This document shows positions 1 through 53,215 of a stretch of DNA of 64,000 nucleotides, one piece after another. Where the stretch lies: NCBI RefSeq assembly GCF_024700885.2, contig NZ_CP117016.1; one strand, written 5' to 3'. The stretch is from Escherichia coli (lineage in GTDB: Bacteria; Pseudomonadota; Gammaproteobacteria; Enterobacterales; Enterobacteriaceae). A model generated the notes under the pieces. The model was not told the DNA's origin, made no database searches, and was given only the letters and a program-made list of their open reading frames with translations. Positions within the stretch are counted from its first letter, which is position 1. Each line of letters starts with the position of its first letter. Made by a program: the position numbers and the translations under genes.

Positions 1-3000
1 AGCTGGATCTCGCCGCCAACAACGGTACGCAACATACGGTATTTTCCGGGCCGGAAGCCCGTCTCGCGGTATTTTGCGCCACGCTCTCGCAGCATGACAT
101 TAACTATCGTCGCCTGAGCGTAACCGGTGCGGCGCACTCCGCTTTACTGGAGCCGATACTCGATCGGTTCCTGGACACCTGCGCGGGACTGCACGCGGAG
201 CCGGGGCAAATACCGATTATTTCCACGCTCACCGCCGACGTCATTGATGAGTCAACGCTCAACCAGGCGGATTACTGGCGCCGACACATGCGCCAGCCGG
301 TGCGTTTTATCCAGAGTATTCAGGTGGCGCATCAGCTCGGCGCCCGCGTTTTTCTGGAGATGGGGCCCGATGCCCAGTTGGTTGCTTGCGGGCAGCGCGA
401 ATACCGCGATAACGCATACTGGATAGCCAGCGCCCGGCGTAACAAAGAGGCGAGCGATGTCCTCAATCAGGCCCTGCTCCAGCTTTACGCTGCCGGCGTC
501 GCCCTACCGTGGGCCGACCTGCTGGCGGGCGATGGACAACGTATCGCTGCGCCATGTTATCCGTTTGATACTGAACGTTACTGGAAAGAGCGCGTCTCCC
601 CGGCCTGCGAGCCTGCCGACGCAGCGCTGTCTGCCGGGCTGGAGGTGGCGAGTCGCGCCGCGACAGCGCTCGATCTCCCTCGCCTGGAAGCGCTTAAACA
701 GTGCGCCACGCGACTGCACGCCATCTACGTCGATCAACTGGTACAACGCTGTACCGGCGATGCCATTGAGAACGGCGTGGACGCCATGACCATCATGCGC
801 CGTGGACGTCTGCTGCCCCGCTACCAGCAGCTACTCCAGCGCCTGCTGAATAACTGCGTGGTCGACGGCGATTACCGCTGCACCGACGGGCGATACGTCC
901 GCGCCCGCCCCATTGAACATCAACAGCGGGAATCACTGCTGACGGAACTTGCCGGTTATTGTGAAGGTTTTCAGGCTATTCCCGACACCATCGCCCGTGC
1001 CGGCGATCGGTTATATGAAATGATGAGCGGCGCGGAAGAACCGGTGGCGATTATCTTCCCGCAAAGCGCCTCCGACGGCGTGGAAGTGCTGTATCAGGAA
1101 TTCAGCTTTGGCCGCTATTTCAACCAAATCGCCGCCGGGGTATTACGCGGCATTGTCCAGACGCGTCAGCCCCGCCAGCCGTTGCGTATTCTTGAAGTTG
1201 GCGGCGGAACCGGCGGCACCACCGCGTGGCTGCTGCCGGAACTCAACGGCGTTCCGGCACTGGAGTACCATTTCACCGATATCTCGGCGCTGTTCACCCG
1301 TCGCGCCCAGCAGAAATTCGCCGACTACGATTTTGTGAAGTATAGCGAGCTGGATCTCGAAAAAGAGGCGCAGTCTCAGGGTTTCCAGGCACAGTCTTAC
1401 GATCTTATCGTGGCAGCGAACGTGATTCACGCCACCCGCCATATTGGCCGCACGCTCGATAATCTGCGCCCCCTGCTCAAGCCGGGCGGGCGCCTGCTGA
1501 TGCGCGAAATCACCCAGCCAATGCGTCTGTTTGACTTCGTTTTCGGCCCGCTGGTTCTTCCGCTACAGGATCTCGACGCCCGCGAAGGTGAGTTATTCCT
1601 CACCACCGCTCAGTGGCAACAACAGTGCCGCCACGCCGGATTCAGCAAAGTGGCGTGGCTACCGCAGGATGGCAGCCCGAACGCCGGGATGAGCGAACAT
1701 ATCATTCTCGCCACGCTGCCCGGTCAGGCGGTTAGCGCCGTAACATTCACCGCGCCATCAGAACCCGTGTTGGGGCAGGCGCTGACGGATAACGGTGATT
1801 ATCTCGCCGACTGGTCTGATTGCGCAGGTCAGCCCGAACAGTTTAACGCCCGCTGGCAGGAGGCATGGCGTCTGCTTTCACAGCGTCATGGCGACGCTCT
1901 GCCTGTGGAACCGCCCCCCGTCGCCGCCCCGGAGTGGCTGGGGAAGGTTCGCTTAAGCTGGCAAAACGAAGCCTTTTCCCGCGGTCAGATGCGCGTTGAA
2001 GCCCGTCATCCTGCTGGCGAGTGGCTGCCGCTATCGCCCGCCGCGCCTCTTCCTGCGCCGCAAACGCATTATCAATGGCGCTGGACGCCCCTCAACGTCG
2101 CCAGCATTGACCATCCGCTTACCTTTAGCTTCAGCGCCGGTACGCTTGCGCGCAGCGACGAGCTGGCGCAATACGACATCATTCACGATCCGCACGCCTC
2201 TTCACGACTGATGATTGTTGAGGAGAGCGAGGATACGCTGGCCTTAGCGGAGAAAGTGATAGCAGCGCTCACCGCCAGCGCAGCCGGATTGATTGTGGTT
2301 ACTCGCCGCGCGTGGCGAGTCGAGGAAAATGAAGCACTCTCTGCATCCCATCACGCGCTATGGGCCTTGCTTCGCGTCGCGGCCAACGAACAGCCGGAAC
2401 GGTTGCTTGCCGCCATCGATCTCGCCGAAAACACCCCGTGGGAAACGCTGCATCAAGGGTTGAGCGCAGTCTCACTATCACAGCGCTGGCTCGCCGCACG
2501 GGGTGACACCCTTTGGCTTCCTTCACTGTCGCCCAATACGGGATGCGCCGCTGAATTACCGGCAAACGTGTTTACCGGCGATAGCCGCTGGCATCTGGTG
2601 ACCGGAGCGTTTGGCGGATTAGGCCGCCTTGCCGTGAACTGGCTCAGAGAAAAAGGGGCGCGACGCATCGCCCTGCTGGCGCCGCGCGTGGATGAGTCAT
2701 GGCTACGCGACGTGGAGGGCGGGCAGACGCGCGTCTGCCGTTGTGATGTGGGCGATGCCGGGCAACTGGCCACGGTTCTTGACGATCTGGCGGCCAACGG
2801 CGGCATTGCCGGAGCGATTCATGCCGCTGGCGTATTGGCTGACGCGCCCTTGCAGGAGCTTGATGACCACCAGCTGGCTGCCGTTTTCGCGGTAAAAGCG
2901 CAGGCGGCAAGCCAGCTGTTGCAAACCCTGCGCAACCACGACGGACGCTATCTTATTCTCTACTCTTCCGCTGCCGCCACCCTCGGCGCGCCGGGTCAGA

Positions 3001-6000
3001 GCGCCCATGCGCTGGCCTGCGGCTACCTGGACGGGCTGGCCCAGCAGTTTTCCACCCTTGATGCGCCGAAAACGCTCTCTGTCGCCTGGGGCGCATGGGG
3101 AGAAAGCGGTCGGGCGGCCACGCCGGAAATGCTGGCGACGCTCGCCAGCCGAGGTATGGGCGCGTTAAGCGATGCCGAAGGCTGCTGGCACCTGGAACAG
3201 GCGGTGATGCGCGGCGCCCCGTGGCGACTGGCGATGCGCGTTTTTACCGACAAAATGCCCCCGTTACAACAGGCTCTGTTTAACATCAGCGCCACAGAAA
3301 AAGCCGCAACGCCGGTCATTCCTCCTGCTGATGACAACGCCTTTAACGGCAGCCTGAGCGATGAAACAGCGGTGATGGCATGGCTGAAAAAGCGGATTGC
3401 GGTTCAGCTAAGGCTGAGCGATCCGGCGTCACTGCATCCAAACCAGGATCTGTTGCAACTCGGCATGGACTCGCTGCTCTTCCTTGAACTCAGTAGCGAT
3501 ATTCAGCACTACCTGGGTGTACGCATCAATGCGGAACGGGCGTGGCAGGATCTGTCTCCTCATGGACTCACGCAGCTTATCTGTTCTAAGCCAGAGGCGA
3601 CGCCTGCCGCTTCGCAGCCGGAAGTGTTGCGGCACGACGCCGACGAGCGTTATGCGCCCTTCCCTTTGACGCCCATTCAGCACGCCTACTGGCTGGGGCG
3701 AACCCACCTCATTGGCTATGGCGGCGTCGCCTGTCACGTCCTGTTTGAGTGGGATAAACGCCACGATGAGTTCGATCTCGCCATACTGGAGAAAGCATGG
3801 AACCAGCTCATCGCACGCCACGATATGTTGCGTATGGTGGTTGATGCCGACGGGCAGCAGCGAATCCTGGCGACAACGCCGGAGTATCACATCCCGCGTG
3901 ACGATCTGCGCGCGCTTTCCCCGGAAGAACAGCGCATCGCGCTGGAAAAACGGCGGCATGAACTGAGCTATCGCGTTTTGCCTGCCGACCAGTGGCCTCT
4001 TTTTGAGCTGGTGGTCAGCGAAATCGACGATTGCCATTACCGTCTGCATATGAACCTCGACCTTTTGCAGTTTGATGTGCAGAGTTTTAAAGTCATGATG
4101 GACGACCTGGCGCAGGTCTGGCGCGGTGAAACGCTGGCACCGCTCGCTATTACCTTCCGTGATTATGTGATGGCTGAACAGGCGCGCCGACAGACATCGG
4201 CATGGCACGATGCCTGGGATTACTGGCAGGAAAAACTGCCGCAACTGCCCTTAGCGCCAGAGCTGCCGGTGGTTGAGACGCCCCCGGAAACGCCACACTT
4301 CACCACCTTCAAATCGACGATCGGCAAGACAGAATGGCAGGCCGTGAAACAGCGCTGGCAGCAGCAAGGCGTCACACCGTCTGCCGCGCTGCTCACGCTG
4401 TTTGCCGCCACCCTTGAGCGCTGGAGCCGTACCACAACATTTACGCTGAACCTGACGTTCTTCAATCGCCAGCCGATCCATCCGCAAATCAACCAGTTGA
4501 TTGGTGATTTTACCTCCGTCACGCTGGTTGATTTTAACTTCTCAGCGCCGGTGACGTTGCAAGAGCAGATGCAACAGACCCAACAGCGCCTCTGGCAAAA
4601 CATGGCGCACAGTGAAATGAACGGTGTTGAGGTGATCCGTGAGCTGGGCCGCCTGCGCGGATCACAACGTCAACCGCTGATGCCGGTAGTGTTTACCAGT
4701 ATGCTGGGGATGACGCTGGAAGGCATGACTATCGATCAGGCGATGAGCCATCTGTTCGGCGAACCCTGCTATGTATTCACGCAAACGCCGCAGGTCTGGC
4801 TGGATCATCAGGTCATGGAGAGTGACGGCGAGTTGATGTTTAGCTGGTACTGCATGGACAACGTGCTGGAACCCGGCGCTGCCGAGGCGATGTTTAATGA
4901 CTATTGCGCCATCCTGCAAGCCGTCATCGCCGCCCCTGAAAGCCTGAAGACTCTCGCCAGCGGCATCGCCAGGCACATTCCCCGCCGACGCTGGCCGCTG
5001 AACGCGCAGGCGGACTACGACCTGCGGGATATTGAGCAGGCGACGCTCGAATACCCCGGCATCCGGCAGGCCAGAGCGGAAATAACCGAACAGGGCGCGT
5101 TGACGCTGGATATCGTGATGGCCGACGATCCTTCGCCATCAGCGGCGATGCCTGATGAGCACGAACTTACCCAACTGGCGCTGCCGTTGCCTGAGCAGGC
5201 GCAGCTTGATGAGCTGGAGGCGACCTGGCGCTGGCTGGAGGCGCGTGCGCTACAGGGGATCGCGGCTACGCTAAATCGTCACGGCCTGTTTACCACGCCG
5301 GAGATCGCCCATCGCTTTAGCGCAATAGTACAGGCGCTGTCCTCGCAAGCGTCTCACCAGCGTCTGCTGCGCCAGTGGCTACAGTGTCTGACGGAAAGAG
5401 AGTGGTTAATCCGCGAAGGTGAAAGCTGGCGCTGCCGCATTCCGCTCAGCGAGATTCCTGAGCCTCAGGAAGCGTGCCCGCAAAGCCAATGGAGCCAGGC
5501 GCTGGCGCAGTATCTGGAAACCTGCATCGCCCGGCACGACGCCCTCTTCTCCGGGCAGTGTTCTCCGCTGGAATTGCTGTTCAACGAGCAGCATCGCGTT
5601 ACCGACGCGCTGTATCGCGACAACCCCGCCAGCACCTGTCTGAATCGCTATACCGCGCAGATTGCCGCCTTGTGCAGCGCAGAACGGATTCTGGAGGTTG
5701 GCGCCGGAACCGCAGCCACTACCGCGCCGGTGCTGAAGGCCACGCGGAACACGCGACAGTCGTACCACTTCACGGACGTCTCCGCGCAGTTCCTCAATGA
5801 CGCCAGAGCCCGTTTCCATGATGAATCGCAGGTGTCTTATGCCTTGTTCGACATCAACCAGCCGCTGGATTTCACCGCCCACCCGGAGGCGGGTTACGAC
5901 CTGATCGTTGCCGTCAATGTGCTCCACGACGCCAGCCATGTCGTCCAGACGTTGCGCAGATTAAAACTGTTGCTGAAAGCCGGCGGACGTTTGCTGATCG

Positions 6001-7406
6001 TTGAAGCGACGGAGCGAAACAGCGTATTCCAGCTGGCGAGCGTGGGCTTTATTGAGGGATTAAGCGGATACCGCGATTTCCGCCGCCGGGATGAGAAACC
6101 GATGCTCACCCGCTCCGCATGGCAGGAGGTTCTCGTTCAGGCCGGGTTTGCAAACGAGCTGGCGTGGCCCGCGCAGGAATCGTCGCCGCTGCGCCAGCAT
6201 CTGCTGGTAGCGCGTTCGCCTGGCGTAAATCGCCCGGATAAAAAAGCCGTGAGCCGCTATTTACAGCAGCGCTTTGGCACCGGTCTGCCCATTTTACAGA
6301 TCCGGCAAAGAGAAGCGTTATTTACGCCGCTGCATGCCCCGTCTGATGCGCCGACTGAGCCAGCCAAACCCACGCCAGTTGCCGGGGGGAATCCGGCACT
6401 GGAAAAACAGGTGGCTGAACTCTGGCAATCGCTGCTGTCTCGCCCCGTGGCAAGGCATCACGACTTTTTCGAACTGGGCGGCGACAGCCTGATGGCGACA
6501 AGGATGGTCGCGCAGCTAAACCGGAGAGGGATTGCCAGGGCTAACCTTCAGGATCTGTTCAGCCATTCGACGCTGAGCGACTTCTGCGCCCATCTACAGG
6601 CGGCTACGTCAGGAGAGGACAACCCGATACCCCTTTGCCAGGGCGACGGTGAGGAAACCCTGTTTGTCTTCCACGCTTCAGACGGCGATATCAGCGCCTG
6701 GCTGCCGCTCGCTAGCGCGTTGAACAGGCGCGTTTTCGGCCTGCAAGCAAAATCGCCGCAGCGCCTTGCCACGCTCGACCAGATGATCGATGAGTATGTC
6801 GGGTGCATCCGTCGTCAGCAGCCTCACGGCCCTTATGTGCTGGCGGGTTGGTCGTATGGCGCGTTTCTTGCGGCGGGCGCCGCACAACGCCTGTACGCCA
6901 AAGGCGAGCAGGTTCGGATGGTGTTAATCGATCCCGTGTGCCGACAGGATTTCTGTTGCGAAAACCGGGCGGCCCTGCTGCGCCTGTTAGCCGAAGGACA
7001 AACGCCTCTGGCACTGCCCGAACATTTCGACCAGCAGACGCCCGACAGCCAGCTTGCCGACTTTATTAGCCTCGCTAAAACGGCCGGTATGGTGTCGCAA
7101 AACCTGACGCTGCAAGCGGCAGAAACGTGGCTCGACAACATCGCGCATCTGCTGCGTTTACTGACTGAGCATACGCCGGGCGAAAGCGTTCCGGTCCCCT
7201 GTCTCATGGTGTATGCCGCCGGGAGACCCGCGCACTGGACGCCAGCAGAAACCGAGTGGCAGGGCTGGATAAACAACGCCGACGACGCTGTGATTGAAGC
7301 CAGCCACTGGCAAATCATGATGGAAGCCCCCCACGTTCAGGCTTGTGCGCAACACATTACGCGCTGGCTTTGCGCAACCTCAACGCAACCGGAGAACACG
7401 TTATGA
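1..7406 (+). CDS. irp1: Yersiniabactin PKS/NRPS HMWP1, 5'-truncated at window edge (reading frame opens at nt 3; ORF-track Met at 288 is internal)
   Basis: Frame 3 is open from nt 3 to the stop at 7404-7406. Translation shows an acyltransferase motif (GAAHSALLEP), two SAM-methyltransferase motifs (LEVGGGTGG near 1195; LEVGAGTAA near 5695), a KR Rossmann motif (VTGAFGGLGR near 2600), carrier-protein serines (LGMDSLL near 3465; GGDSLMA near 6485), a cyclization-type D-rich motif near 4060 and a thioesterase GWSYG near 6850. Gene order matches the HPI. Confidence 0.9.
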   Translation, partial: LDLAANNGTQHTVFSGPEARLAVFCATLSQHDINYRRLSVTGAAHSALLEPILDRFLDTCAGLHAEPGQIPIISTLTADVIDESTLNQADYWRRHMRQPVRFIQSIQVAHQLGARVFLEMGPDAQLVACGQREYRDNAYWIASARRNKEASDVLNQALLQLYAAGVALPWADLLAGDGQRIAAPCYPFDTERYWKERVSPACEPADAALSAGLEVASRAATALDLPRLEALKQCATRLHAIYVDQLVQRCTGDAIENGVDAMTIMRRGRLLPRYQQLLQRLLNNCVVDGDYRCTDGRYVRARPIEHQQRESLLTELAGYCEGFQAIPDTIARAGDRLYEMMSGAEEPVAIIFPQSASDGVEVLYQEFSFGRYFNQIAAGVLRGIVQTRQPRQPLRILEVGGGTGGTTAWLLPELNGVPALEYHFTDISALFTRRAQQKFADYDFVKYSELDLEKEAQSQGFQAQSYDLIVAANVIHATRHIGRTLDNLRPLLKPGGRLLMREITQPMRLFDFVFGPLVLPLQDLDAREGELFLTTAQWQQQCRHAGFSKVAWLPQDGSPNAGMSEHIILATLPGQAVSAVTFTAPSEPVLGQALTDNGDYLADWSDCAGQPEQFNARWQEAWRLLSQRHGDALPVEPPPVAAPEWLGKVRLSWQNEAFSRGQMRVEARHPAGEWLPLSPAAPLPAPQTHYQWRWTPLNVASIDHPLTFSFSAGTLARSDELAQYDIIHDPHASSRLMIVEESEDTLALAEKVIAALTASAAGLIVVTRRAWRVEENEALSASHHALWALLRVAANEQPERLLAAIDLAENTPWETLHQGLSAVSLSQRWLAARGDTLWLPSLSPNTGCAAELPANVFTGDSRWHLVTGAFGGLGRLAVNWLREKGARRIALLAPRVDESWLRDVEGGQTRVCRCDVGDAGQLATVLDDLAANGGIAGAIHAAGVLADAPLQELDDHQLAAVFAVKAQAASQLLQTLRNHDGRYLILYSSAAATLGAPGQSAHALACGYLDGLAQQFSTLDAPKTLSVAWGAWGESGRAATPEMLATLASRGMGALSDAEGCWHLEQAVMRGAPWRLAMRVFTDKMPPLQQALFNISATEKAATPVIPPADDNAFNGSLSDETAVMAWLKKRIAVQLRLSDPASLHPNQDLLQLGMDSLLFLELSSDIQHYLGVRINAERAWQDLSPHGLTQLICSKPEATPAASQPEVLRHDADERYAPFPLTPIQHAYWLGRTHLIGYGGVACHVLFEWDKRHDEFDLAILEKAWNQLIARHDMLRMVVDADGQQRILATTPEYHIPRDDLRALSPEEQRIALEKRRHELSYRVLPADQWPLFELVVSEIDDCHYRLHMNLDLLQFDVQSFKVMMDDLAQVWRGETLAPLAITFRDYVMAEQARRQTSAWHDAWDYWQEKLPQLPLAPELPVVETPPETPHFTTFKSTIGKTEWQAVKQRWQQQGVTPSAALLTLFAATLERWSRTTTFTLNLTFFNRQPIHPQINQLIGDFTSVTLVDFNFSAPVTLQEQMQQTQQRLWQNMAHSEMNGVEVIRELGRLRGSQRQPLMPVVFTSMLGMTLEGMTIDQAMSHLFGEPCYVFTQTPQVWLDHQVMESDGELMFSWYCMDNVLEPGAAEAMFNDYCAILQAVIAAPESLKTLASGIARHIPRRRWPLNAQADYDLRDIEQATLEYPGIRQARAEITEQGALTLDIVMADDPSPSAAMPDEHELTQLALPLPEQAQLDELEATWRWLEARALQGIAATLNRHGLFTTPEIAHRFSAIVQALSSQASHQRLLRQWLQCLTEREWLIREGESWRCRIPLSEIPEPQEACPQSQWSQALAQYLETCIARHDALFSGQCSPLELLFNEQHRVTDALYRDNPASTCLNRYTAQIAALCSAERILEVGAGTAATTAPVLKATRNTRQSYHFTDVSAQFLNDARARFHDESQVSYALFDINQPLDFTAHPEAGYDLIVAVNVLHDASHVVQTLRRLKLLLKAGGRLLIVEATERNSVFQLASVGFIEGLSGYRDFRRRDEKPMLTRSAWQEVLVQAGFANELAWPAQESSPLRQHLLVARSPGVNRPDKKAVSRYLQQRFGTGLPILQIRQREALFTPLHAPSDAPTEPAKPTPVAGGNPALEKQVAELWQSLLSRPVARHHDFFELGGDSLMATRMVAQLNRRGIARANLQDLFSHSTLSDFCAHLQAATSGEDNPIPLCQGDGEETLFVFHASDGDISAWLPLASALNRRVFGLQAKSPQRLATLDQMIDEYVGCIRRQQPHGPYVLAGWSYGAFLAAGAAQRLYAKGEQVRMVLIDPVCRQDFCCENRAALLRLLAEGQTPLALPEHFDQQTPDSQLADFISLAKTAGMVSQNLTLQAAETWLDNIAHLLRLLTEHTPGESVPVPCLMVYAAGRPAHWTPAETEWQGWINNADDAVIEASHWQIMMEAPHVQACAQHITRWLCATSTQPENTL

Positions 7407-8503
7407 TGCCGTCCGCCTCCCCAAAACAACGCGTACTGATTGTGGGCGCCAAATTTGGCGAAATGTACCTGAATGCCTTTATGCAGCCCCCGGAGGGGCT
7501 GGAACTGGTCGGCCTGCTGGCGCAGGGAAGCGCCCGTTCAAGAGAGCTGGCTCATGCGTTTGGCATTCCGCTGTATACCTCGCCGGAACAGATAACCAGG
7601 ATGCCGGATATCGCCTGTATTGTCGTGCGTTCGACCGTCGCCGGAGGAACCGGTACGCAGCTTGCCAGACACTTTCTGACGCGCGGCGTACACGTCATTC
7701 AGGAGCATCCCCTCCACCCGGATGACATCAGTTCCTTACAAACGCTGGCGCAGGAACAGGGCTGCTGCTATTGGGTAAACACGTTTTATCCGCATACGCG
7801 CGCGGGACGCACATGGCTTCGCGATGCGCAGCAGCTGCGTCGCTGTCTGGCTAAGACGCCGCAGGTGGTCCACGCCACCACCAGCCGACAGTTGCTCTAC
7901 TCCACTCTGGATTTGTTGTTGCTGGCTCTGGGCGTTGATGCCGTCGCCGTGGAGTGCGACGTGGTTGGCAGCTTTAGCGATTTTCACTGTCTGAGACTCT
8001 TCTGGCCGGAGGGAGAAGCCTGCCTGCTGCTTCAGCGCTATCTCGATCCTGACGATCCAGATATGCATAGCCTTATCATGCACCGCCTGCTGCTGGGCTG
8101 GCCGGAAGGTCATCTTTCGCTGGAGGCGAGCTACGGCCCCGTCATCTGGTCATCCAGCCTGTTTGTCGCAGACCATCAGGAGAACGCCCACAGCCTCTAC
8201 CGCAGACCGGAGATCCTGCGCGATCTGCCGGGTCTGACGCGCAGCGCGGCGCCCCTGAGCTGGCGCGACTGCTGCGAAACCGTCGGGCCGGAGGGCGTCA
8301 GCTGGTTGCTACACCAGTTGCGCAGCCATCTGGCGGGCGAACATCCACCAGCGGCCTGCCAAAGCGTACATCAGATCGCGTTATCACGTTTATGGCAGCA
8401 GATTTTACGTAAGACCGGCAATGCGGAGATCAGACGCCTGACGCCGCCGCACCACGACCGGTTAGCCGGTTTCTACAACGATGATGATAAGGAGGCGCTG
8501 TGA
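7403..8503 (+). CDS. ybtU: Thiazolinyl imide reductase (yersiniabactin biosynthesis)
   Basis: 366-aa product starting MMPSASPKQRVLIVGAKFG; the ATG overlaps the irp1 stop (ATGA) and its own stop overlaps the ybtT GTG start. Position between irp1 and ybtT is conserved. Confidence 0.85.
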   Translation: MMPSASPKQRVLIVGAKFGEMYLNAFMQPPEGLELVGLLAQGSARSRELAHAFGIPLYTSPEQITRMPDIACIVVRSTVAGGTGTQLARHFLTRGVHVIQEHPLHPDDISSLQTLAQEQGCCYWVNTFYPHTRAGRTWLRDAQQLRRCLAKTPQVVHATTSRQLLYSTLDLLLLALGVDAVAVECDVVGSFSDFHCLRLFWPEGEACLLLQRYLDPDDPDMHSLIMHRLLLGWPEGHLSLEASYGPVIWSSSLFVADHQENAHSLYRRPEILRDLPGLTRSAAPLSWRDCCETVGPEGVSWLLHQLRSHLAGEHPPAACQSVHQIALSRLWQQILRKTGNAEIRRLTPPHHDRLAGFYNDDDKEAL

Positions 8504-9303
8504 CGCAATCTGCAATGTGCATACCGCTGTGGCCCGCCCGGAACGGCAATACTGCGCATCTGGTCATGTGCCCTTTCGCTGGCGGCAGCAGTAGCGCGTT
8601 TCGCCACTGGCAAGCTGAGCAACTGGCTGATTGCGCGCTTTCTCTGGTGACCTGGCCGGGGCGCGATCGCCTTCGCCATCTGGAACCGCTCAGAAGCATT
8701 ACACAACTGGCGGCACTGCTGGCGAACGAGCTGGAAGCATCCGTATCGCCTGACACGCCGCTTTTACTCGCCGGGCACAGCATGGGGGCGCAGGTGGCGT
8801 TTGAAACCTGCCGACTTCTGGAGCAACGGGGGCTTGCGCCACAAGGACTGATTATTTCCGGGTGCCATGCCCCGCATCTGCATTCTGAACGCCAGCTCAG
8901 CCATCGCGATGATGCCGACTTTATCGCTGAGCTGATAGACATTGGCGGATGTTCTCCTGAACTGCGGGAAAACCAGGAATTAATGTCGCTGTTTCTTCCT
9001 CTTCTGCGCGCTGATTTTTACGCCACCGAGAGCTATCACTACGACTCGCCCGACGTCTGTCCGCCGCTGCGCACGCCTGCGCTGTTATTGTGCGGCAGCC
9101 ACGATCGCGAAGCCTCCTGGCAGCAGGTCGATGCCTGGCGTCAGTGGCTGAGCCACGTTACAGGCCCGGTGGTGATTGACGGCGATCATTTCTATCCCAT
9201 TCAACAAGCCCGGTCCTTTTTTACGCAGATTGTCCGCCATTTTCCCCACGCATTTTCTGCAATGACCGCGTTGCAAAAACAGCCCAGTACTTCAGAAAGG
9301 TGA
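8500..9303 (+). CDS. ybtT: Type II thioesterase (yersiniabactin editing)
   Basis: 267 aa with an alpha/beta-hydrolase GHSMG motif; GTG start overlaps the ybtU stop. Confidence 0.85.
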   Translation: MTQSAMCIPLWPARNGNTAHLVMCPFAGGSSSAFRHWQAEQLADCALSLVTWPGRDRLRHLEPLRSITQLAALLANELEASVSPDTPLLLAGHSMGAQVAFETCRLLEQRGLAPQGLIISGCHAPHLHSERQLSHRDDADFIAELIDIGGCSPELRENQELMSLFLPLLRADFYATESYHYDSPDVCPPLRTPALLLCGSHDREASWQQVDAWRQWLSHVTGPVVIDGDHFYPIQQARSFFTQIVRHFPHAFSAMTALQKQPSTSER

Positions 9304-9306
9304 CGC

Positions 9307-10884
9307 ATGAATTCTTCCTTTGAATCTCTGATTGAACAGTATCCCTTACCCATTGCCGAACAGTTGCACCACTGGGCGGCCCGTTATGCCTCGCGAATTG
9401 CCGTCGTTGATGCAAAGGGGTCGTTAACCTACAGCGCGCTTGATGCACAAGTTGACGAACTTGCCGCAGGTCTGTCATCACTGGGTTTGCGTTCGGGGGA
9501 GCATGTAATTGTGCAGCTTCCCAACGACAATGCGTTTGTTACCCTGCTGTTCGCCTTGTTAAGACTGGGCGTTATCCCCGTGCTGGCGATGCCCTCGCAA
9601 CGGGCGCTGGATATCGACGCGCTGATTGAGCTGGCGCAACCCGTCGCTTACGTTATTCACGGGGAAAACCACGCAGAGCTGGCCCGACAGATGGCGCACA
9701 AACACGCCTGCTTGCGTCATGTTCTGGTCGCTGGAGAGACCGTGAGCGACGATTTTACGCCGCTCTTCTCCCTTCACGGTGAGCGACAGGCATGGCCGCA
9801 GCCTGATGTTTCCGCCACCGCGTTGTTGTTGCTCTCAGGCGGCACAACCGGCACGCCCAAACTCATCCCGCGCCGACATGCCGACTATAGCTATAACTTC
9901 AGCGCTTCTGCTGAACTGTGCGGCATCAGCCAACAGAGCGTGTATCTCGCCGTCCTCCCGGTGGCGCATAACTTTCCGCTGGCCTGCCCCGGTATTCTGG
10001 GAACGCTTGCCTGCGGCGGAAAAGTGGTGCTGACCGACAGCGCCAGCTGTGATGAGGTGATGCCTTTAATCGCGCAGGAAAGAGTGACTCACGTCGCCCT
10101 GGTTCCGGCGCTGGCGCAATTATGGGTGCAGGCCAGGGAGTGGGAAGACAGCGACCTTTCGTCGCTGCGCGTCATTCAGGCAGGCGGCGCCCGGCTCGAC
10201 CCGACGCTTGCTGAGCAGGTTATCGCCACCTTTGACTGTACCCTGCAACAGGTTTTCGGTATGGCGGAAGGCCTGCTCTGTTTTACCCGGCTGGACGATC
10301 CGCATGCCACCATTCTCCACAGCCAGGGGCGCCCGTTGTCCCCTCTGGATGAAATCCGCATCGTTGATCAAGACGAGAACGACGTCGCGCCGGGCGAAAC
10401 CGGGCAATTGTTAACGCGCGGCCCTTATACCATTTCGGGCTATTACCGCGCCCCTGCCCACAACGCGCAGGCCTTTACCGCGCAAGGGTTTTACCGCACA
10501 GGCGACAATGTCAGGCTGGATGAGGTGGGGAACCTGCACGTTGAGGGACGCATAAAAGAGCAGATCAACCGCGCCGGAGAAAAAATAGCCGCGGCTGAAG
10601 TGGAATCGGCACTGCTGCGTTTAGCGGAAGTGCAAGATTGCGCGGTGGTCGCCGCGCCGGACACGCTGCTTGGCGAGCGGATTTGCGCGTTTATCATCGC
10701 GCAGCAGGTGCCAACTGACTATCAGCAGTTGCGTCAACAACTGACCCGTATGGGGCTCAGCGCGTGGAAAATTCCTGACCAAATCGAGTTTCTGGACCAC
10801 TGGCCGCTCACCGCCGTCGGCAAGATAGACAAAAAACGCCTGACGGCTCTCGCCGTCGACCGTTATCGCCATTCTGCCCAATAA
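9307..10884 (+). CDS. ybtE: Salicyl-AMP ligase (adenylation enzyme)
   Basis: 525 aa with adenylate-forming enzyme motifs (SGGTTGTPK, GYYRAP, GDN, EGRIKEQINRAGEK). Confidence 0.9.
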   Translation: MNSSFESLIEQYPLPIAEQLHHWAARYASRIAVVDAKGSLTYSALDAQVDELAAGLSSLGLRSGEHVIVQLPNDNAFVTLLFALLRLGVIPVLAMPSQRALDIDALIELAQPVAYVIHGENHAELARQMAHKHACLRHVLVAGETVSDDFTPLFSLHGERQAWPQPDVSATALLLLSGGTTGTPKLIPRRHADYSYNFSASAELCGISQQSVYLAVLPVAHNFPLACPGILGTLACGGKVVLTDSASCDEVMPLIAQERVTHVALVPALAQLWVQAREWEDSDLSSLRVIQAGGARLDPTLAEQVIATFDCTLQQVFGMAEGLLCFTRLDDPHATILHSQGRPLSPLDEIRIVDQDENDVAPGETGQLLTRGPYTISGYYRAPAHNAQAFTAQGFYRTGDNVRLDEVGNLHVEGRIKEQINRAGEKIAAAEVESALLRLAEVQDCAVVAAPDTLLGERICAFIIAQQVPTDYQQLRQQLTRMGLSAWKIPDQIEFLDHWPLTAVGKIDKKRLTALAVDRYRHSAQ

Positions 10885-10893
10885 GCGCAAACC

Positions 10894-10960
10894 GACCCGA
10901 AACAGGTTGAAATAAACCCGTTTCGGGTAGCACTACTATTAGAAATAGTTATCATTTTCA
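10894..10960 (+). promoter_or_regulatory. fyuA upstream control region: inverted repeat (cccgaaac/gtttcggg, 10896-10927) and an AT-rich Fur-box-like sequence (agaaatagttatcattttc, 10941-10959)
   Basis: Read directly in the 130-bp ybtE–fyuA intergenic region; fyuA/psn is known to be Fur- and YbtA-regulated. Confidence 0.35.
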
Positions 10961-11014
10961 ATTCACCATTGTCGGTATTTTTGGCGTTTCGCCGTCTTAC
11001 AGGGACTCACAACA

Positions 11015-13036
11015 ATGAAAATGACACGGCTTTATCCTCTGGCCTTGGGGGGATTATTGCTCCCCGCCATTGCTAATGCCCAGACTTCACAGCAAGACGA
11101 AAGCACGCTGGTGGTTACCGCCAGTAAACAATCTTCCCGCTCGGCATCAGCCAACAACGTCTCGTCTACTGTTGTCAGCGCGCCGGAATTAAGCGACGCC
11201 GGCGTCACCGCCAGCGACAAACTCCCCAGAGTCTTGCCCGGGCTCAATATTGAAAATAGCGGCAACATGCTTTTTTCGACGATCTCGCTACGCGGCGTCT
11301 CTTCAGCGCAGGACTTCTATAACCCCGCCGTCACCCTGTATGTCGATGGCGTCCCTCAGCTTTCCACCAACACCATCCAGGCGCTTACCGATGTGCAAAG
11401 CGTGGAGTTGCTGCGAGGCCCACAGGGAACGTTATATGGCAAAAGCGCTCAGGGCGGGATCATCAACATCGTCACCCAGCAGCCGGACAGCACGCCGCGC
11501 GGCTATATTGAAGGCGGCGTCAGTAGCCGCGACAGTTATCGAAGTAAGTTCAACCTGAGCGGCCCCATTCAGGATGGCCTGCTGTACGGCAGCGTCACCC
11601 TGTTACGCCAGGTTGATGACGGCGACATGATTAACCCCGCGACGGGAAGCGATGACTTAGGCGGCACCCGCGCCAGCATAGGGAATGTGAAACTGCGTCT
11701 GGCGCCGGACGATCAGCCCTGGGAAATGGGCTTTGCCGCCTCACGCGAATGTACCCGCGCCACCCAGGACGCCTATGTGGGATGGAATGATATTAAGGGC
11801 CGTAAGCTGTCGATCAGCGATGGTTCACCAGACCCGTACATGCGGCGCTGCACTGACAGCCAGACCCTGAGTGGGAAATACACCACCGATGACTGGGTTT
11901 TCAACCTGATCAGCGCCTGGCAGCAGCAGCATTATTCGCGCACCTTCCCTTCCGGTTCGTTAATCGTCAATATGCCTCAGCGCTGGAATCAGGATGTGCA
12001 GGAGCTGCGCGCCGCAACCCTGGGCGATGCGCGTACCGTTGATATGGTGTTTGGGCTGTACCGGCAGAACACCCGCGAGAAGTTAAATTCAGCCTACGAC
12101 ATGCCGACAATGCCTTATTTAAGCAGTACCGGCTATACCACCGCTGAAACGCTGGCCGCATACAGTGACCTGACCTGGCATTTAACCGATCGTTTTGATA
12201 TCGGCGGCGGCGTGCGCTTCTCGCATGATAAATCCAGTACACAATATCACGGCAGCATGCTCGGCAACCCGTTTGGCGACCAGGGTAAGAGCAATGACGA
12301 TCAGGTGCTCGGGCAGCTATCCGCAGGCTATATGCTGACCGATGACTGGAGAGTGTATACCCGTGTAGCCCAGGGATATAAACCTTCCGGGTACAACATC
12401 GTGCCTACTGCGGGTCTTGATGCCAAACCGTTCGTCGCCGAGAAATCCATCAACTATGAACTTGGCACCCGCTACGAAACCGCTGACGTCACGCTGCAAG
12501 CCGCGACGTTTTATACCCACACCAAAGACATGCAGCTTTACTCTGGCCCGGTCGGGATGCAGACATTAAGCAATGCGGGTAAAGCCGACGCCACCGGCGT
12601 TGAGCTTGAAGCGAAGTGGCGGTTTGCGCCAGGCTGGTCATGGGATATCAATGGCAACGTGATCCGTTCCGAATTCACCAATGACAGTGAGTTGTATCAC
12701 GGTAACCGGGTGCCGTTCGTACCACGTTATGGCGCGGGAAGCAGCGTGAACGGCGTGATTGATACGCGCTATGGCGCACTGATGCCCCGACTGGCGGTTA
12801 ATCTGGTCGGGCCGCATTATTTCGATGGCGACAACCAGTTGCGGCAAGGCACCTATGCCACCCTGGACAGCAGCCTGGGCTGGCAGGCGACTGAACGGAT
12901 GAACATTTCCGTCTATGTCGATAACCTGTTCGACCGTCGTTACCGTACCTATGGCTACATGAACGGCAGCAGCGCCGTCGCGCAGGTCAATATGGGTCGC
13001 ACCGTCGGTATCAATACGCGAATTGATTTCTTCTGA
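11015..13036 (+). CDS. fyuA: TonB-dependent outer-membrane receptor for ferric yersiniabactin / pesticin
   Basis: 673 aa with signal peptide, TonB-box region, and a C-terminal aromatic residue ending the beta-barrel (…RIDFF). Confidence 0.9.
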   Translation: MKMTRLYPLALGGLLLPAIANAQTSQQDESTLVVTASKQSSRSASANNVSSTVVSAPELSDAGVTASDKLPRVLPGLNIENSGNMLFSTISLRGVSSAQDFYNPAVTLYVDGVPQLSTNTIQALTDVQSVELLRGPQGTLYGKSAQGGIINIVTQQPDSTPRGYIEGGVSSRDSYRSKFNLSGPIQDGLLYGSVTLLRQVDDGDMINPATGSDDLGGTRASIGNVKLRLAPDDQPWEMGFAASRECTRATQDAYVGWNDIKGRKLSISDGSPDPYMRRCTDSQTLSGKYTTDDWVFNLISAWQQQHYSRTFPSGSLIVNMPQRWNQDVQELRAATLGDARTVDMVFGLYRQNTREKLNSAYDMPTMPYLSSTGYTTAETLAAYSDLTWHLTDRFDIGGGVRFSHDKSSTQYHGSMLGNPFGDQGKSNDDQVLGQLSAGYMLTDDWRVYTRVAQGYKPSGYNIVPTAGLDAKPFVAEKSINYELGTRYETADVTLQAATFYTHTKDMQLYSGPVGMQTLSNAGKADATGVELEAKWRFAPGWSWDINGNVIRSEFTNDSELYHGNRVPFVPRYGAGSSVNGVIDTRYGALMPRLAVNLVGPHYFDGDNQLRQGTYATLDSSLGWQATERMNISVYVDNLFDRRYRTYGYMNGSSAVAQVNMGRTVGINTRIDFF

Positions 13037-13042
13037 TTATTG

Positions 13043-13075
13043 TAAAAGGGATACCGAAAAGGTATCCCTTTTACA
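13043..13075 (+). terminator. Rho-independent terminator after fyuA
   Basis: Perfect hairpin aaaagggatacc-gaaa-ggtatccctttt immediately 3' of the fyuA stop. Confidence 0.6.
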
Positions 13076-13551
13076 CCACTAGTTAAAACCAGTAACTCAG
13101 CAGAGTCGCAAAAAATATTAATCCATAGTGATTATTTAAACAATGAAATTGCGATTAGGATAAATAGATTTAACTTTCTCGTTCCTTTCTCTCCTTATAC
13201 TAAAGAAATAATCATATCAAAATAAAAATTCACAACAGTGCAACATTAAAAAATACAACCAACAAACAATCCTATATACAAGGCACATCTCCAGAATATA
13301 AAAGCACAGACAAACAACCTAAAAAAAACAACCCCATACATATAAATTATTTTATAGGTAAAATAGATTATATATTCTCATAGCTACCACAAACTATACT
13401 AGCCTGAACTATATTTATTCTGCTGCAATCAATGCATACATAACACAAATATCACTCAGGTACACTACTCAAACCACGCTGGGATTTTTCCTCAAGTTAT
13501 AATCATCACCCCGAAAATCATTCGGCATTTACTCATTAAATAGTCACCCCA
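13076..13551. other. AT-rich non-coding spacer at the HPI right end
   Basis: About 470 bp of strongly AT-biased sequence with no ORF of 60 codons or more, in sharp contrast to the GC-rich ybt genes. Confidence 0.5.
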
Positions 13552-13606
13552 GGTGATGCTGCCAACTTACTGATTTAGTGTATGATGGTGTTTTTGAGGT
13601 GCTCCA

Positions 13607-13882
13607 GTGGCTTCTGTTTCTATCAGCTGTCCCTCCTGTTCAGCTACTGACGGGGTGGTGCGTAACGGCAAAAGCACCGCCGGACATCAGCGCTATCTCT
13701 GCTCTCACTGCCGTAAAACATGGCAACTGCAGTTCACTTACACCGCTTCTCAACCCGGTACGCACCAGAAAATCATTGATATGGCCATGAATGGCGTTGG
13801 ATGCCGGGCAACTGCCCGCATTATGGGCGTTGGCCTCAACACGATTTTACGTCACTTAAAAAACTCAGGCCGCAGTCGGTAA
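13607..13882 (+). CDS. insA: IS1 InsA
   Basis: 91 aa starting [24 protein letters not shown] (zinc finger plus HTH). Confidence 0.9.
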
Positions 13883-14304
13883 CCTCGCGCATACAGCCGG
13901 GCAGTGACGTCATCGTCTGCGCGGAAATGGACGAACAGTGGGGCTATGTCGGGGCTAAATCGCGCCAGCGCTGGCTGTTTTACGCGTATGACAGGCTCCG
14001 GAAGACGGTTGTTGCGCACGTATTCGGTGAACGCACTATGGCGACGCTGGGGCGTCTTATGAGCCTGCTGTCACCCTTTGACGTGGTGATATGGATGACG
14101 GATGGCTGGCCGCTGTATGAATCCCGCCTGAAGGGAAAGCTGCACGTAATCAGCAAGCGATATACGCAGCGAATTGAGCGGCATAACCTGAATCTGAGGC
14201 AGCACCTGGCACGGCTGGGACGGAAGTCGCTGTCGTTCTCAAAATCGGTGGAGCTGCATGACAAAGTCATCGGGCATTATCTGAACATAAAACACTATCA
14301 ATAA
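13801..14304 (+). CDS. insB: IS1 InsB (expressed as an InsAB' fusion by -1 frameshift)
   Basis: 167-aa ORF overlapping the insA 3' end in the -1 frame. Confidence 0.85.
13856..13864 (+). promoter_or_regulatory. IS1 programmed -1 ribosomal frameshift motif (A6C)
   Basis: ttaaaaaac lies in the insA/insB overlap. Confidence 0.6.
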
Positions 14305-14319
14305 GTTGGAGTCATTACC

Positions 14320-14645
14320 CCGTATTGCAGTGTTATATTCTTCGCTAAATCTTTTATTTCTTTTAATGTTGCGTGATCCTGCATAGTCATTGTGACTAAT
14401 GTTAATTTAGTCTGTTCAAGTTTGAGCGCATTAAAGACTTCTAAATTAATTGTCGACGTAACAATTAATAGATGCTTAATTTTATGCAATTCAAGCGCCC
14501 GAATAACAGGAAAGATGGCCATAGCATCGCCAATCTGATCGGGAATATGTATGACAACAAAGTCTGTTTTTTCAATATTAAAATTATAAGCTTTATAATC
14601 GTAGTAACTAAATGCAATACGTCTCAACAATGATACTAAAAACAT
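14320..14645 (-). pseudogene. yeeL: Glycosyltransferase family 9 (heptosyltransferase-like) gene fragment, 3'-truncated by IS1
   Basis: Minus-strand ORF (MFLVSLLRRIAF…IHIPDQIGDAMAIFPVIRALE…) runs into the IS1 right end; position upstream of shiA matches yeeL in K-12. Symbol recalled from memory, not verified. Confidence 0.5.
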
Positions 14646-14959
14646 AACTAACCTCGCCTCCCTACTGGTTATAATGCAATGCAGTCTATCAGAATCATCA
14701 GGGTGCAATTTTGTGCATATGCGGACTTTTATGTTTCATATCTCGAACCTGTGGGCCATCTGCTTAATCCTTAAACAACACCAGCAACTCCTGCGCTTTC
14801 ATCTTCCATCGAATTTTTCATGTTGCCGCTAATCAGCCATAAAATCATTTGCAGATGCGCTCTGTCGAGGTAGTCTCATAAGGTTCGTTTATAGATCGAC
14901 GGCAATGTGAGTTACCTTTTCCATACTAATTATAAAAAGACAGTACAAACAGGATCATT

Positions 14960-16276
14960 ATGGACTCCACGCTCATCTCCACTCGTCCCGATGAAGGGAC
15001 GCTTTCGTTAAGTCGCGCCCGACGAGCTGCGTTAGGCAGTTTCGCTGGTGCCGTCGTCGACTGGTATGATTTTTTACTCTATGGCATTACCGCCGCACTG
15101 GTGTTTAATCGCGAGTTTTTCCCGCAAGTAAGCCCGGCGATGGGAACGCTCGCCGCATTTGCCACCTTTGGTGTCGGCTTCCTTTTCCGACCGCTCGGCG
15201 GTGTCATTTTCGGTCACTTTGGTGACCGACTGGGACGTAAGCGCATGTTAATGCTGACCGTCTGGATGATGGGCATCGCGACAGCCTTGATTGGTATTCT
15301 TCCTTCATTCTCGACCATTGGGTGGTGGGCACCTATTTTGCTGGTGACACTGCGTGCCATTCAGGGATTTGCCGTCGGCGGCGAATGGGGAGGCGCAGCG
15401 TTGCTTTCCGTTGAAAGTGCGCCGAAAAATAAAAAAGCCTTTTACAGTAGCGGTGTACAAGTTGGCTACGGAGTAGGTTTACTGCTTTCAACCGGACTGG
15501 TTTCATTGATCAGTATGATGACGACTGACGTACAGTTTTTAAGCTGGGGCTGGCGCATTCCTTTCCTGTTTAGCATCGTACTGGTACTGGGAGCATTGTG
15601 GGTGCGCAATGGCATGGAGGAGTCCGCGGAATTTGAACAACAGCAACATAATCAAGCGGCCGCGAAAAAACGCATCCCGGTTATCGAAGCTCTGTTACGA
15701 CATCCCGGTGCTTTCCTGAAGATTATTGCGCTACGACTGTGCGAGTTGCTGACGATGTACATCGTTACCGCCTTTGCACTTAATTATTCAACCCAGAATA
15801 TGGGGTTACCGCGCGAACTTTTCCTTAATATTGGTTTGCTGGTAGGTGGATTAAGCTGCCTGACAATTCCCTGTTTTGCCTGGCTTGCCGATCGTTTTGG
15901 TCGCCGCAGGTTTTATATCACAGGTGCGTTAATCGGAATGTTGAGCGCATTTCCTTTCTTTATGGCGCTTGAAGCACAATCTATTTTCTGGATAGTTTTC
16001 TTCTCCATAATGCTGGCAAACATTGCGCATGACATGGTGGTGTGTGTGCAACAACCGATGTTTACCGAAATGTTTGGTGCCAGTTATCGCTATAGTGGCG
16101 CTGGAGTCGGTTATCAGGTTGCCAGTGTGGTTGGTGGTGGATTTACACCTTTTATTGCCGCTGCACTCATCACTTACTTTGCCGGGAACTGGCATAGCGT
16201 CGCCATTTATTTGCTGGCTGGATGCCTGATTTCCGCAATAACCGCTTTGTTGATGAAAGACAATCAACGCGCTTGA
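14960..16276 (+). CDS. shiA: Shikimate transporter (MFS)
   Basis: 438 aa, multi-pass membrane protein with MFS motifs (GHFGDRLGRKRM); conserved position upstream of amn. Confidence 0.85.
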   Translation: MDSTLISTRPDEGTLSLSRARRAALGSFAGAVVDWYDFLLYGITAALVFNREFFPQVSPAMGTLAAFATFGVGFLFRPLGGVIFGHFGDRLGRKRMLMLTVWMMGIATALIGILPSFSTIGWWAPILLVTLRAIQGFAVGGEWGGAALLSVESAPKNKKAFYSSGVQVGYGVGLLLSTGLVSLISMMTTDVQFLSWGWRIPFLFSIVLVLGALWVRNGMEESAEFEQQQHNQAAAKKRIPVIEALLRHPGAFLKIIALRLCELLTMYIVTAFALNYSTQNMGLPRELFLNIGLLVGGLSCLTIPCFAWLADRFGRRRFYITGALIGMLSAFPFFMALEAQSIFWIVFFSIMLANIAHDMVVCVQQPMFTEMFGASYRYSGAGVGYQVASVVGGGFTPFIAAALITYFAGNWHSVAIYLLAGCLISAITALLMKDNQRA

Positions 16277-19345: not shown

Positions 19346-19421
19346 TGGCTCCTCTGACTGGACTCGAACCAGTGACATACGGATTAACAGTCCGCCGTTC
19401 TACCAACTGAACTACAGAGGA
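19346..19421 (-). tRNA. asnW: tRNA-Asn
   Basis: 76-nt reverse complement of the tRNA-Asn sequence ending CCA; differs from the two plus-strand copies at one D-arm position. Confidence 0.9.
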
Positions 19422-21169: not shown

Positions 21170-21245
21170 TCCTCTGTAGTTCAGTCGGTAGAACGGCGGA
21201 CTGTTAATCCGTATGTCACTGGTTCGAGTCCAGTCAGAGGAGCCA
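21170..21245 (+). tRNA. asnU: tRNA-Asn
   Basis: TCCTCTGTAGTTCAGTCGGTAGAACGGCGGACTGTTAATCCGTATGTCACTGGTTCGAGTCCAGTCAGAGGAGCCA. Confidence 0.95.
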
Positions 21246-53205: not shown

Positions 53206-53215
53206 AAACGTTGGT

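What the first reader, a model, noticed from the sequence alone, without database searches (positions are those of the whole stretch)
1..13036. Yersiniabactin siderophore locus (irp1–ybtU–ybtT–ybtE–fyuA) with translationally coupled gene junctions
This is the hallmark ExPEC/Yersinia virulence determinant. The irp1–ybtU (ATGA) and ybtU–ybtT (GTGA) junctions overlap by 4 nt, and the ybtT–ybtE gap is only 3 nt. The fyuA upstream region carries an inverted repeat and a Fur-box-like sequence.
Basis: established knowledge. Interest (0 to 1): 0.35.

Follow-up and report, generated by a model that had tools for sequence, protein, structure and literature searches.

The report
Yersiniabactin siderophore genes, already known

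Summary
Window 1-13036 holds the 3' 78% of irp1 (cut by the window edge), then ybtU, ybtT, ybtE and fyuA. It is 100% identical to E. coli MLI114 and at least 99% identical in 2266 of 5426 complete E. coli genomes. FyuA matches the Y. pestis pesticin receptor (PDB 4EPA) at 652 of 653 aligned residues.

The ATGA (7403-7406) and GTGA (8500-8503) overlaps and the 3-nt ybtT-ybtE gap are real. They are kept in Klebsiella and Raoultella ybt loci that are only 86-91% identical.

The inverted repeat upstream of fyuA (10895-10928) is most likely the published YbtA "repeated sequence" operator. The same repeat, an AAATAAA spacer and a Fur-like box about 12 nt downstream recur upstream of irp2 and, in degenerate form, in the ybtA/ybtP region. 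The Fur-like site (10941-10959) matches the consensus at 13 of 19 positions and is conserved across genera.

Translational coupling itself is inferred, not shown. Nothing departs from the published high-pathogenicity island. Novelty: already known. Interest is low.

Side notes: a rare IS1-associated deletion just downstream of fyuA, and an inverted prophage tail-fibre segment.

The parts
1..7406 (+). irp1 (HMWP1 polyketide synthase / NRPS hybrid), 3' 78% only. Codons start at nt 3 and encode residues 697-3163. Domains in window coordinates: AT C-terminal part 9-452; C-methyltransferase about 1128-1658; KR 2589-3101; ACP with GMDSL serine motif at 3462; cyclisation (Cy) domain 3618-4937; second methyltransferase 5634-6026; PCP 6408-6596 with GGDSL at 6477; thioesterase from 6657 with GWSYG at 6846.
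   Evidence: RefSeq annotation of the identical record; Pfam hits; open frame; motif positions; Cy domain matches HMWP2 and EpoB Cy structures
7403..8503 (+). ybtU, thiazolinyl imide reductase (366 aa). Its ATG overlaps the irp1 stop codon as ATGA at 7403-7406.
   Evidence: TIGR01761 at 534 bits against a cut-off of 189; Pfam Irp3-like_C; PDB 4GMF/4GMG YbtU/Irp3 at 829 bits; sequence
8500..9303 (+). ybtT, type II (editing) thioesterase (267 aa). Its GTG start overlaps the ybtU stop codon as GTGA at 8500-8503. Shine-Dalgarno AAGGAGG lies at 8489-8495.
   Evidence: Pfam Thioesterase at 234 bits; PDB 6BA8 YbtT aligned 1-267 to 1-267; sequence
9307..10884 (+). ybtE, salicyl-AMP ligase (525 aa). 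It starts 3 nt after the ybtT stop codon.
   Evidence: RefSeq annotation; AMP-binding domains; closest solved structures are salicylate-AMP ligase 5WM2, DhbE and PchD; sequence
10895..10928 (.). Inverted repeat ACCCGAAACAGGTT-GAAATA-AACCCGTTTCGGGT. This is most likely the YbtA-binding repeated sequences (RS) of the fyuA promoter.
   Evidence: the repeat finder I1; the same module lies upstream of irp2, with a degenerate copy in the ybtA/ybtP spacer; 33-34 of 34 bases identical in Raoultella and Klebsiella loci whose overall identity is 86-91%; RS sites described in PMC5634559 and PMC8725597
10941..10959 (-). Fur-box-like site GAAAATGATAACTATTTCT, 13 of 19 matches to the consensus. It overlaps a candidate -10 hexamer TATCAT at 10950-10955 (the -10 assignment is my inference).
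   Evidence: Consensus scoring; equivalent sites with 15 of 19 matches at the same offset from the RS module in the irp2 and ybtA/ybtP promoters; 18-19 of 19 bases conserved in other genera
11015..13036 (+). [quoted passage not shown]
   Evidence: TIGR01783 at 498 bits; Plug and beta-barrel domains; 652/653 identical to PDB 4EPA, Y. pestis pesticin receptor
13041..13075 (+). Perfect 15-bp stem-loop (UGUAAAAGGGAUACC gaaaa GGUAUCCCUUUUACA) starting 5 nt after the fyuA stop codon. The G+C-rich core of the stem is followed by UUUU. Likely the intrinsic terminator of fyuA.
   Evidence: RNA fold -24.1 kcal/mol, z = -7.2, 0 of 200 shuffles as stable. It was missed by the simple terminator scan because only 4 T follow the stem.

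Best explanation
[quoted passage not shown] It holds the distal part of the irp2-irp1-ybtU-ybtT-ybtE biosynthetic operon and the separately transcribed receptor gene fyuA.

From established knowledge of the pathway:
- YbtE adenylates salicylate and loads it on HMWP2.
- HMWP1 (irp1) adds the malonyl-derived polyketide unit (KS-AT-MT-KR-ACP), then the third cysteine-derived thiazoline (Cy-MT-PCP), and releases the product with its TE domain.
- YbtU reduces the middle thiazoline to a thiazolidine.
- YbtT is a type II thioesterase that clears mis-primed carrier domains.
- FyuA imports metal-yersiniabactin across the outer membrane using TonB.

The 4-nt overlaps and the 3-nt gap place each start codon within reach of a ribosome that is terminating on the upstream gene. 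The small downstream enzymes are therefore probably translated by re-initiation or by local unfolding of the mRNA. This is inferred, not shown.

fyuA has its own promoter. The inverted repeat at 10895-10928 is the operator for the AraC-type activator YbtA. It abuts a weak -35 region. The Fur-like box at 10941-10959 overlaps the probable -10 hexamer. Transcription would therefore be repressed by Fe-Fur and activated by YbtA with yersiniabactin.
For: Identity:
- 100% identical to annotated HPI genes in E. coli MLI114, and at least 99% identical in 2266 of 5426 complete E. coli genomes.
- The upstream part of the same record carries irp2, ybtA, ybtPQXS, an integrase and tRNA-Asn, which is the complete HPI layout.

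Protein families and structures:
- YbtU: TIGR01761 and PDB 4GMF. YbtT: PDB 6BA8. YbtE: closest to salicylate-AMP ligases. FyuA: 652/653 identical to Y. pestis Psn, PDB 4EPA.
- HMWP1 domain order AT-MT-KR-ACP-Cy-MT-PCP-TE, with carrier serine motifs and a GWSYG thioesterase motif.

Junctions:
- Read directly from the sequence.
- Retained in ybt loci of K. oxytoca, K. michiganensis and R. ornithinolytica at 86-91% identity.

Promoter:
- The same module (RS inverted repeat, AAATAAA, GGGTAG, about 12 nt, Fur-like box) occurs in all three HPI regulatory regions.
- The repeat and the Fur site are nearly invariant across genera, while the 12 nt between them and the flanks vary.
- The literature states that the irp2, fyuA and ybtA/irp6 promoters carry YbtA-binding RS sites and Fur boxes, and that there are four HPI operons (PMC5634559, PMC8725597).
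Against: No result contradicts the identification.

Weak points:
- The Fur site matches the consensus at only 13 of 19 positions.
- The simple sigma-70 scan reported no promoter on the + strand upstream of fyuA. This is expected for an activator-dependent promoter with a poor -35, but it leaves my -10/-35 assignment unverified.
- No canonical terminator separates ybtE from fyuA, so read-through from the biosynthetic operon is not excluded.
- Translational coupling is inferred from geometry only.
- The ybtU-ybtT junction of K. oxytoca (L005) did not align well enough to check.
Confidence: 0.97

Rival explanations
1. The inverted repeat 10 nt after the ybtE stop codon acts mainly as an RNA element. 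It would be a 3' stem-loop that terminates or stabilises the irp2-ybtE transcript, rather than a DNA operator for YbtA.
For: As RNA it folds into a stable hairpin (-20.2 kcal/mol, z = -4.7). It starts 10 nt after the ybtE stop codon. No other terminator-like site on the + strand lies between ybtE and fyuA.
Against: No U-tract follows the stem; the sequence continues AGCACUACUAUUAG. The same repeat lies upstream of irp2, after a separate canonical hairpin-plus-T terminator for ybtA. A degenerate, poorly self-complementary copy sits in the divergent ybtA/ybtP spacer, where there is no upstream transcript to terminate. Published work treats these repeats as YbtA binding sites. The two roles are not mutually exclusive.
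Confidence: 0.1
2. The gene overlaps are incidental products of genome compaction and have no role in expression. Each downstream gene would be translated independently from its own Shine-Dalgarno sequence.
For: Each start codon has its own purine-rich sequence at a normal distance: GGAG 8 nt before ybtU, AAGGAGG 4 nt before ybtT, and AAAGGTGA before ybtE. From general knowledge, 4-nt overlaps are the commonest overlap class in bacterial operons.
Against: The exact junction geometry is kept in loci that differ at 9-14% of positions. That is expected if the arrangement is under selection, but it does not distinguish coupling from simple compaction.
Confidence: 0.3
3. The locus is a decayed, non-functional HPI remnant rather than a working yersiniabactin system.
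For: An IS1 lies 515 bp downstream of fyuA, with an associated deletion of neighbouring chromosomal genes. Frameshifted irp1 alleles do exist in other E. coli, for example L007.
Against: All five reading frames in the window are open. They are annotated as intact in the identical RefSeq record, whose upstream half of the island is also annotated intact. The IS1 lies beyond the fyuA terminator hairpin.
Confidence: 0.05

Closest known systems
Yersinia high-pathogenicity island (HPI) ybt locus of Y. pestis, Y. enterocolitica 1B and E. coli: the irp2-irp1-ybtU-ybtT-ybtE operon plus fyuA/psn
   Same: Gene order, gene junctions, protein sequences (FyuA 652/653 identical to Y. pestis Psn), the promoter module with YbtA repeated sequences and a Fur box, and integration next to a tRNA-Asn gene with a tyrosine integrase in the identical record.
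   Different: Nothing within 1-13036. Downstream of the island, this strain has an IS1 where most HPI-positive E. coli have yeeJ and an intact yeeL.
ybt loci of Klebsiella and Raoultella (ICEKp-type yersiniabactin clusters)
   Same: Same genes and order from irp1 to fyuA, the same ATGA and GTGA junctions and 3-nt gap where they could be aligned, and the same RS inverted repeat and Fur-like box upstream of fyuA.
   Different: Only 86-91% nucleotide identity to the window. They form a separate lineage of the same system.
Pyochelin system of Pseudomonas aeruginosa (pchDCBA / pchEFG / fptA with the AraC-type regulator PchR)
   Same: A salicylate-capped thiazoline siderophore made by the same enzyme types. 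YbtE resembles PchD (PDB 7TYB, 506 bits). YbtU belongs to the thiazolinyl imide reductase family TIGR01761, to which PchG also belongs (my knowledge). HMWP1 matches dihydroaeruginoic acid synthetase (PDB 7EMY) across its ACP-Cy region. Regulation is by Fur plus an AraC-type activator that responds to the siderophore (established knowledge).
   Different: A distinct, distantly related gene cluster with no polyketide module. It resembles this locus in mechanism only.

Membership tests
Yersinia HPI yersiniabactin (ybt) locus | Gene set and order irp1-ybtU-ybtT-ybtE-fyuA on one strand | tested here: met
   ORFs and RefSeq annotation of a 100% identical record
Yersinia HPI yersiniabactin (ybt) locus | Near-identity of the proteins to the Yersinia reference proteins | tested here: met
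   FyuA is 652/653 identical to Y. pestis Psn, PDB 4EPA. YbtU scores 829 bits over 365 aa against 4GMF/4GMG. YbtT scores 611 bits over 267 aa against 6BA8. No Yersinia DNA could be fetched for a nucleotide comparison: both genome-contig scans returned no Yersinia locus.
Yersinia HPI yersiniabactin (ybt) locus | HMWP1 architecture KS-AT-MT-KR-ACP-Cy-MT-PCP-TE, 3163 aa | tested here: met
   AT (partial), MT, KR, ACP, Cy, MT, PCP and TE were found in order. The length adds up to 3163 aa with the 696 residues outside the window. The KS domain lies outside the window and was not examined.
Yersinia HPI yersiniabactin (ybt) locus | Remainder of the island: irp2, ybtA, ybtPQXS, a P4-type integrase, and insertion at a tRNA-Asn gene | tested here: met
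   These features are present upstream in the identical record NZ_CP117013.1. They lie outside the window itself.
YbtA/Fur-regulated HPI promoters | YbtA repeated sequences (RS) shared among the fyuA, irp2 and ybtA/ybtP promoters | tested here: met
   The ACCCGAAAC/GTTTCGGGT arms are exact in the fyuA and irp2 promoters, with a degenerate copy in the ybtA/ybtP spacer. The literature describes the RS sites. YbtA binding itself is not testable here.
YbtA/Fur-regulated HPI promoters | Fur box near the -10 region | tested here: met
   13 of 19 matches to the consensus at 10941-10959. The paralogous sites match at 15 of 19. The site is conserved across genera. Fur binding itself is not testable with these tools.
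Translationally coupled operon junctions | Stop and start codons overlapping or within a few nucleotides | tested here: met
   ATGA at 7403-7406, GTGA at 8500-8503, and a 3-nt gap at 9304-9306
Translationally coupled operon junctions | Downstream translation depends on translation of the upstream gene | not testable with these tools
   This needs translational fusions with premature stop codons in the upstream gene.

The most novel reading that the evidence does not exclude
The YbtA operator upstream of fyuA, which lies only 10 nt past the ybtE stop codon, may have a second role. It could act as a stable RNA hairpin without a U-tract at the 3' end of the roughly 20-kb irp2-ybtE transcript. In that role it would protect the transcript or partly attenuate read-through into fyuA. 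One palindrome would then link receptor and biosynthesis expression at both the DNA and the RNA level.
Probability: 0.08. Interest if true: 0.3.

Novelty: already known. Interest (0 to 1): 0.05.

Why it matters
The yersiniabactin locus is an important virulence and fitness determinant of extraintestinal E. coli, Yersinia and Klebsiella. Finding it identifies the source as an HPI-positive E. coli. It has been characterised genetically, biochemically and structurally for about 30 years, and this copy is identical to many deposited genomes. The finding is therefore a correct annotation and does not add new knowledge. The only untested element is the assumed translational coupling, which is of minor interest.

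Tried and rejected
- Exact-pattern scan of genome contigs with the 39-nt fyuA operator gave 0 hits.
- A relaxed pattern gave only three loci, from Raoultella ornithinolytica, Klebsiella oxytoca and K. michiganensis. No Yersinia DNA was obtained, so identity to Yersinia rests on proteins with solved structures rather than on DNA alignment.
- The simple promoter and terminator scan gave no + strand promoter upstream of fyuA and missed the fyuA terminator. The hairpin was confirmed by folding instead.
- NCBIfam has no yersiniabactin-specific models that pass cut-off for HMWP1, YbtT, YbtE or FyuA. Only the thiazolinyl reductase and TonB siderophore receptor subfamily models passed. Naming therefore rests on RefSeq annotation of the identical record and on PDB matches.
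- The ORF list shows irp1 as 288..7406, which raised the possibility of an upstream stop codon. I rejected this: the frame is open from nt 3, and 288 is simply the first ATG.
- Rfam found no RNA family inside 1-13036.
- I considered the inverted repeat as a terminator for ybtE and rated this unlikely as its main role (see rival explanations).
Full report
**What is there.** The ORF list for 1-16000 shows a long + strand frame ending at 7406. It is followed by frames at 7403-8503 (the annotated ATG lies inside the listed 7343..8503 ORF), 8500-9303, 9307-10884 and 11015-13036. Megablast of 1-13036 against 5426 complete E. coli genomes found the whole stretch at 99% identity or more in 2266 genomes. 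Several matches are 100% identical, and the RefSeq features under the match are irp1, ybtU, ybtT, ybtE and fyuA. In the best record (E. coli MLI114, NZ_CP117013.1) the gene coordinates map exactly onto the window. The first 21036 window bases have no mismatch to that record.

irp1 is only partly inside the window. The gene is 9492 nt long and the window begins 2086 nt into it. The frame is open from nt 3, with 2467 codons and no stops. The '288' start in the ORF list is simply the first ATG.

**The junctions.** I read these directly from the sequence.
- ATGA at 7403-7406: ybtU start and irp1 stop.
- GTGA at 8500-8503: ybtT GTG start and ybtU stop, preceded by AAGGAGG at 8489-8495.
- TGA at 9301-9303, then cgc, then ATG at 9307: the ybtT-ybtE gap.

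The chosen starts agree with the crystallised proteins. YbtU residues 2-366 align to 4GMF residues 1-365, and YbtT 1-267 aligns to 6BA8 1-267.

The same junction geometry is kept in ybt loci of Klebsiella oxytoca, K. michiganensis and Raoultella ornithinolytica, which are only 86-91% identical overall. ATGA is kept in both loci that reach that far. GTGA is kept in K. michiganensis, while the K. oxytoca junction did not align well enough to judge. TGA-NNN-ATG is kept in all three. Whether translation is actually coupled cannot be decided from sequence. Each start also has its own Shine-Dalgarno-like sequence.

**The proteins.**
- The partial HMWP1 shows, in order: the end of an acyltransferase domain, a methyltransferase, a ketoreductase, a carrier domain (GMDSL), a condensation-type cyclisation domain, a second methyltransferase, a second carrier domain (GGDSL) and a thioesterase (GWSYG). 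The cyclisation domain matches solved Cy domains of HMWP2, EpoB and BmdB. With the 696 residues left of the window the total is 3163 aa. This fits the published HMWP1 architecture (my knowledge of the literature).
- YbtU passes the thiazolinyl imide reductase model at 534 bits against a cut-off of 189.
- YbtT is a stand-alone thioesterase.
- YbtE is an aryl-acid adenylating enzyme. Its closest solved relatives are salicylate-AMP ligases and DhbE/PchD.
- FyuA is a TonB-dependent siderophore receptor. It is identical to the Y. pestis pesticin receptor of PDB 4EPA at 652 of 653 aligned residues.

**The fyuA promoter region (10885-11014).** The repeat finder reports an inverted repeat with arms at 10895-10908 and 10915-10928, 14 nt each and 93% complementary.

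I fetched the rest of the island from the identical record. It carries irp2, ybtA, ybtP, ybtQ, ybtX, ybtS, an integrase and tRNA-Asn. I then compared the three regulatory regions.
- The irp2 upstream region carries the same arms (ACCCGAAAC ... GTTTCGGGT), the same AAATAAA centre and the same GGGTAG.
- About 12 nt further on, it has a Fur-like site with 15 of 19 matches.
- The ybtA/ybtP divergent spacer has a degenerate copy of the same module, with another 15 of 19 Fur-like site.
- In fyuA the Fur-like site is at 10941-10959, with 13 of 19 matches on the minus strand.
- Across the Klebsiella and Raoultella loci, the repeat is identical at 33-34 of 34 bases and the Fur-like site at 18-19 of 19. 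The 12 nt between them and the flanks vary.

Two papers in the library state that the HPI has four operons (ybtA; fyuA; irp2 to ybtE; ybtP to ybtS). They also state that the irp2, fyuA and ybtA/irp6 promoters carry YbtA-binding 'repeated sequences' and Fur boxes (PMC5634559, PMC8725597).

My reading of GTAGCA (10927-10932) as a weak -35 and TATCAT (10950-10955) as the -10 is inference. The simple scan, which needs 4 of 6 matches in each hexamer, did not report it.

**A rival reading of the repeat.** The repeat lies 10 nt after the ybtE stop codon and would fold as RNA at -20.2 kcal/mol. It could therefore also mark the 3' end of the biosynthetic transcript. Three points argue against this being its main role.
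- No U-tract follows it.
- The copy upstream of irp2 comes after a separate canonical terminator for ybtA.
- The ybtA/ybtP copy is poorly self-complementary and has no upstream transcript.

**End of the unit.** A perfect 15-bp hairpin begins 5 nt after the fyuA stop codon (13041-13075, -24.1 kcal/mol, z = -7.2). It is probably the fyuA terminator. The next 515 bp (13037-13551) are very A+T-rich, and at least 80% of a query covering that stretch is present in 2235 genomes. They belong to the conserved E. coli form of the island.

**Comparison with what is known, and verdict.** Every defining feature of the HPI ybt locus that could be tested was met. Nothing within 1-13036 departs from deposited sequences. 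The finding is a correct annotation of a system characterised for decades, so it is already known and of low interest. The most novel reading I cannot exclude is a dual DNA/RNA role for the operator palindrome. I rate its probability at about 0.08.

**Outside the finding.** An IS1 (13552-14319) sits where most HPI-positive E. coli carry yeeJ and an intact yeeL. Only a 5' fragment of yeeL is left next to it. This junction occurs in at most 8 of 5426 genomes, three of them as a single uninterrupted match.

Farther on, window 53208-54815 is inverted relative to MLI114. It lies in a prophage tail-fibre region next to a recombinase gene, as expected for an invertible host-range segment.

Noticed in passing
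window 13552-14645: An IS1 element (about 13552-14319; its left inverted repeat GGTGATGCTGCC begins at 13552) sits 515 bp after fyuA. It abuts a truncated glycosyltransferase family 9 gene (yeeL fragment, about 14319-14645, minus strand). In a typical HPI-positive E. coli (L007), the inverse autotransporter gene yeeJ and an intact yeeL lie here. So there is an IS1-associated deletion of about 3-4 kb of chromosomal DNA. The fyuA-side junction occurs in at most 8 of 5426 complete genomes, 3 of them as a single uninterrupted match.
   Followed up: partly
window 53208-54815 (recombinase gene at about 52132-52704): This segment of about 1.6 kb is inverted relative to the otherwise colinear E. coli MLI114 chromosome, with overlapping alignments of about 215 bp at both ends. 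It lies among prophage tail-fibre and tail-fibre-assembly genes, next to a 'recombinase family protein'. That pattern fits a Gin/Cin/Pin-type invertible host-range switch caught in the opposite orientation.
   Followed up: partly
window 19349-19421 (-), 21170-21242 (+), 23578-23650 (+): Three tRNA genes with identical scores. In the matching record they are tRNA-Asn genes, interspersed with yeeN, yeeO, cbl, nac and ldtA. From gene order as I recall it in K-12, they are likely asnW, asnU and asnV. A fourth tRNA-Asn next to the HPI integrase lies left of the window. No island is inserted at the first of the three, next to yeeO.
   Followed up: partly
window about 27.0-52.0 kb: Downstream of cobUST lies a mosaic island. 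It holds several decayed IS elements (IS3, IS4, ISL3 and IS110 family pseudogenes), an Rfam IS102 RNA match at 42255-42458, a frameshifted Ag43 autotransporter gene, a CP4-44-like block (YfjI family, antirestriction, JAB/RadC-like, and a cbeA antitoxin with a truncated cbtA toxin), and then a P2-like prophage tail module. All names are from the annotation of the near-identical MLI114 record. I did not examine this region further.
   Followed up: no
L002:8330-8400 (minus strand; outside the window, upstream of irp2): A canonical hairpin-plus-T terminator (GAGGCCCGGAT-ACCCC-ATCCGGGCCTC followed by TGTTCTTT) lies between ybtA and the RS/Fur module of the irp2 promoter. ybtA and irp2 are therefore separate transcription units although they are co-directional.
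   Followed up: no
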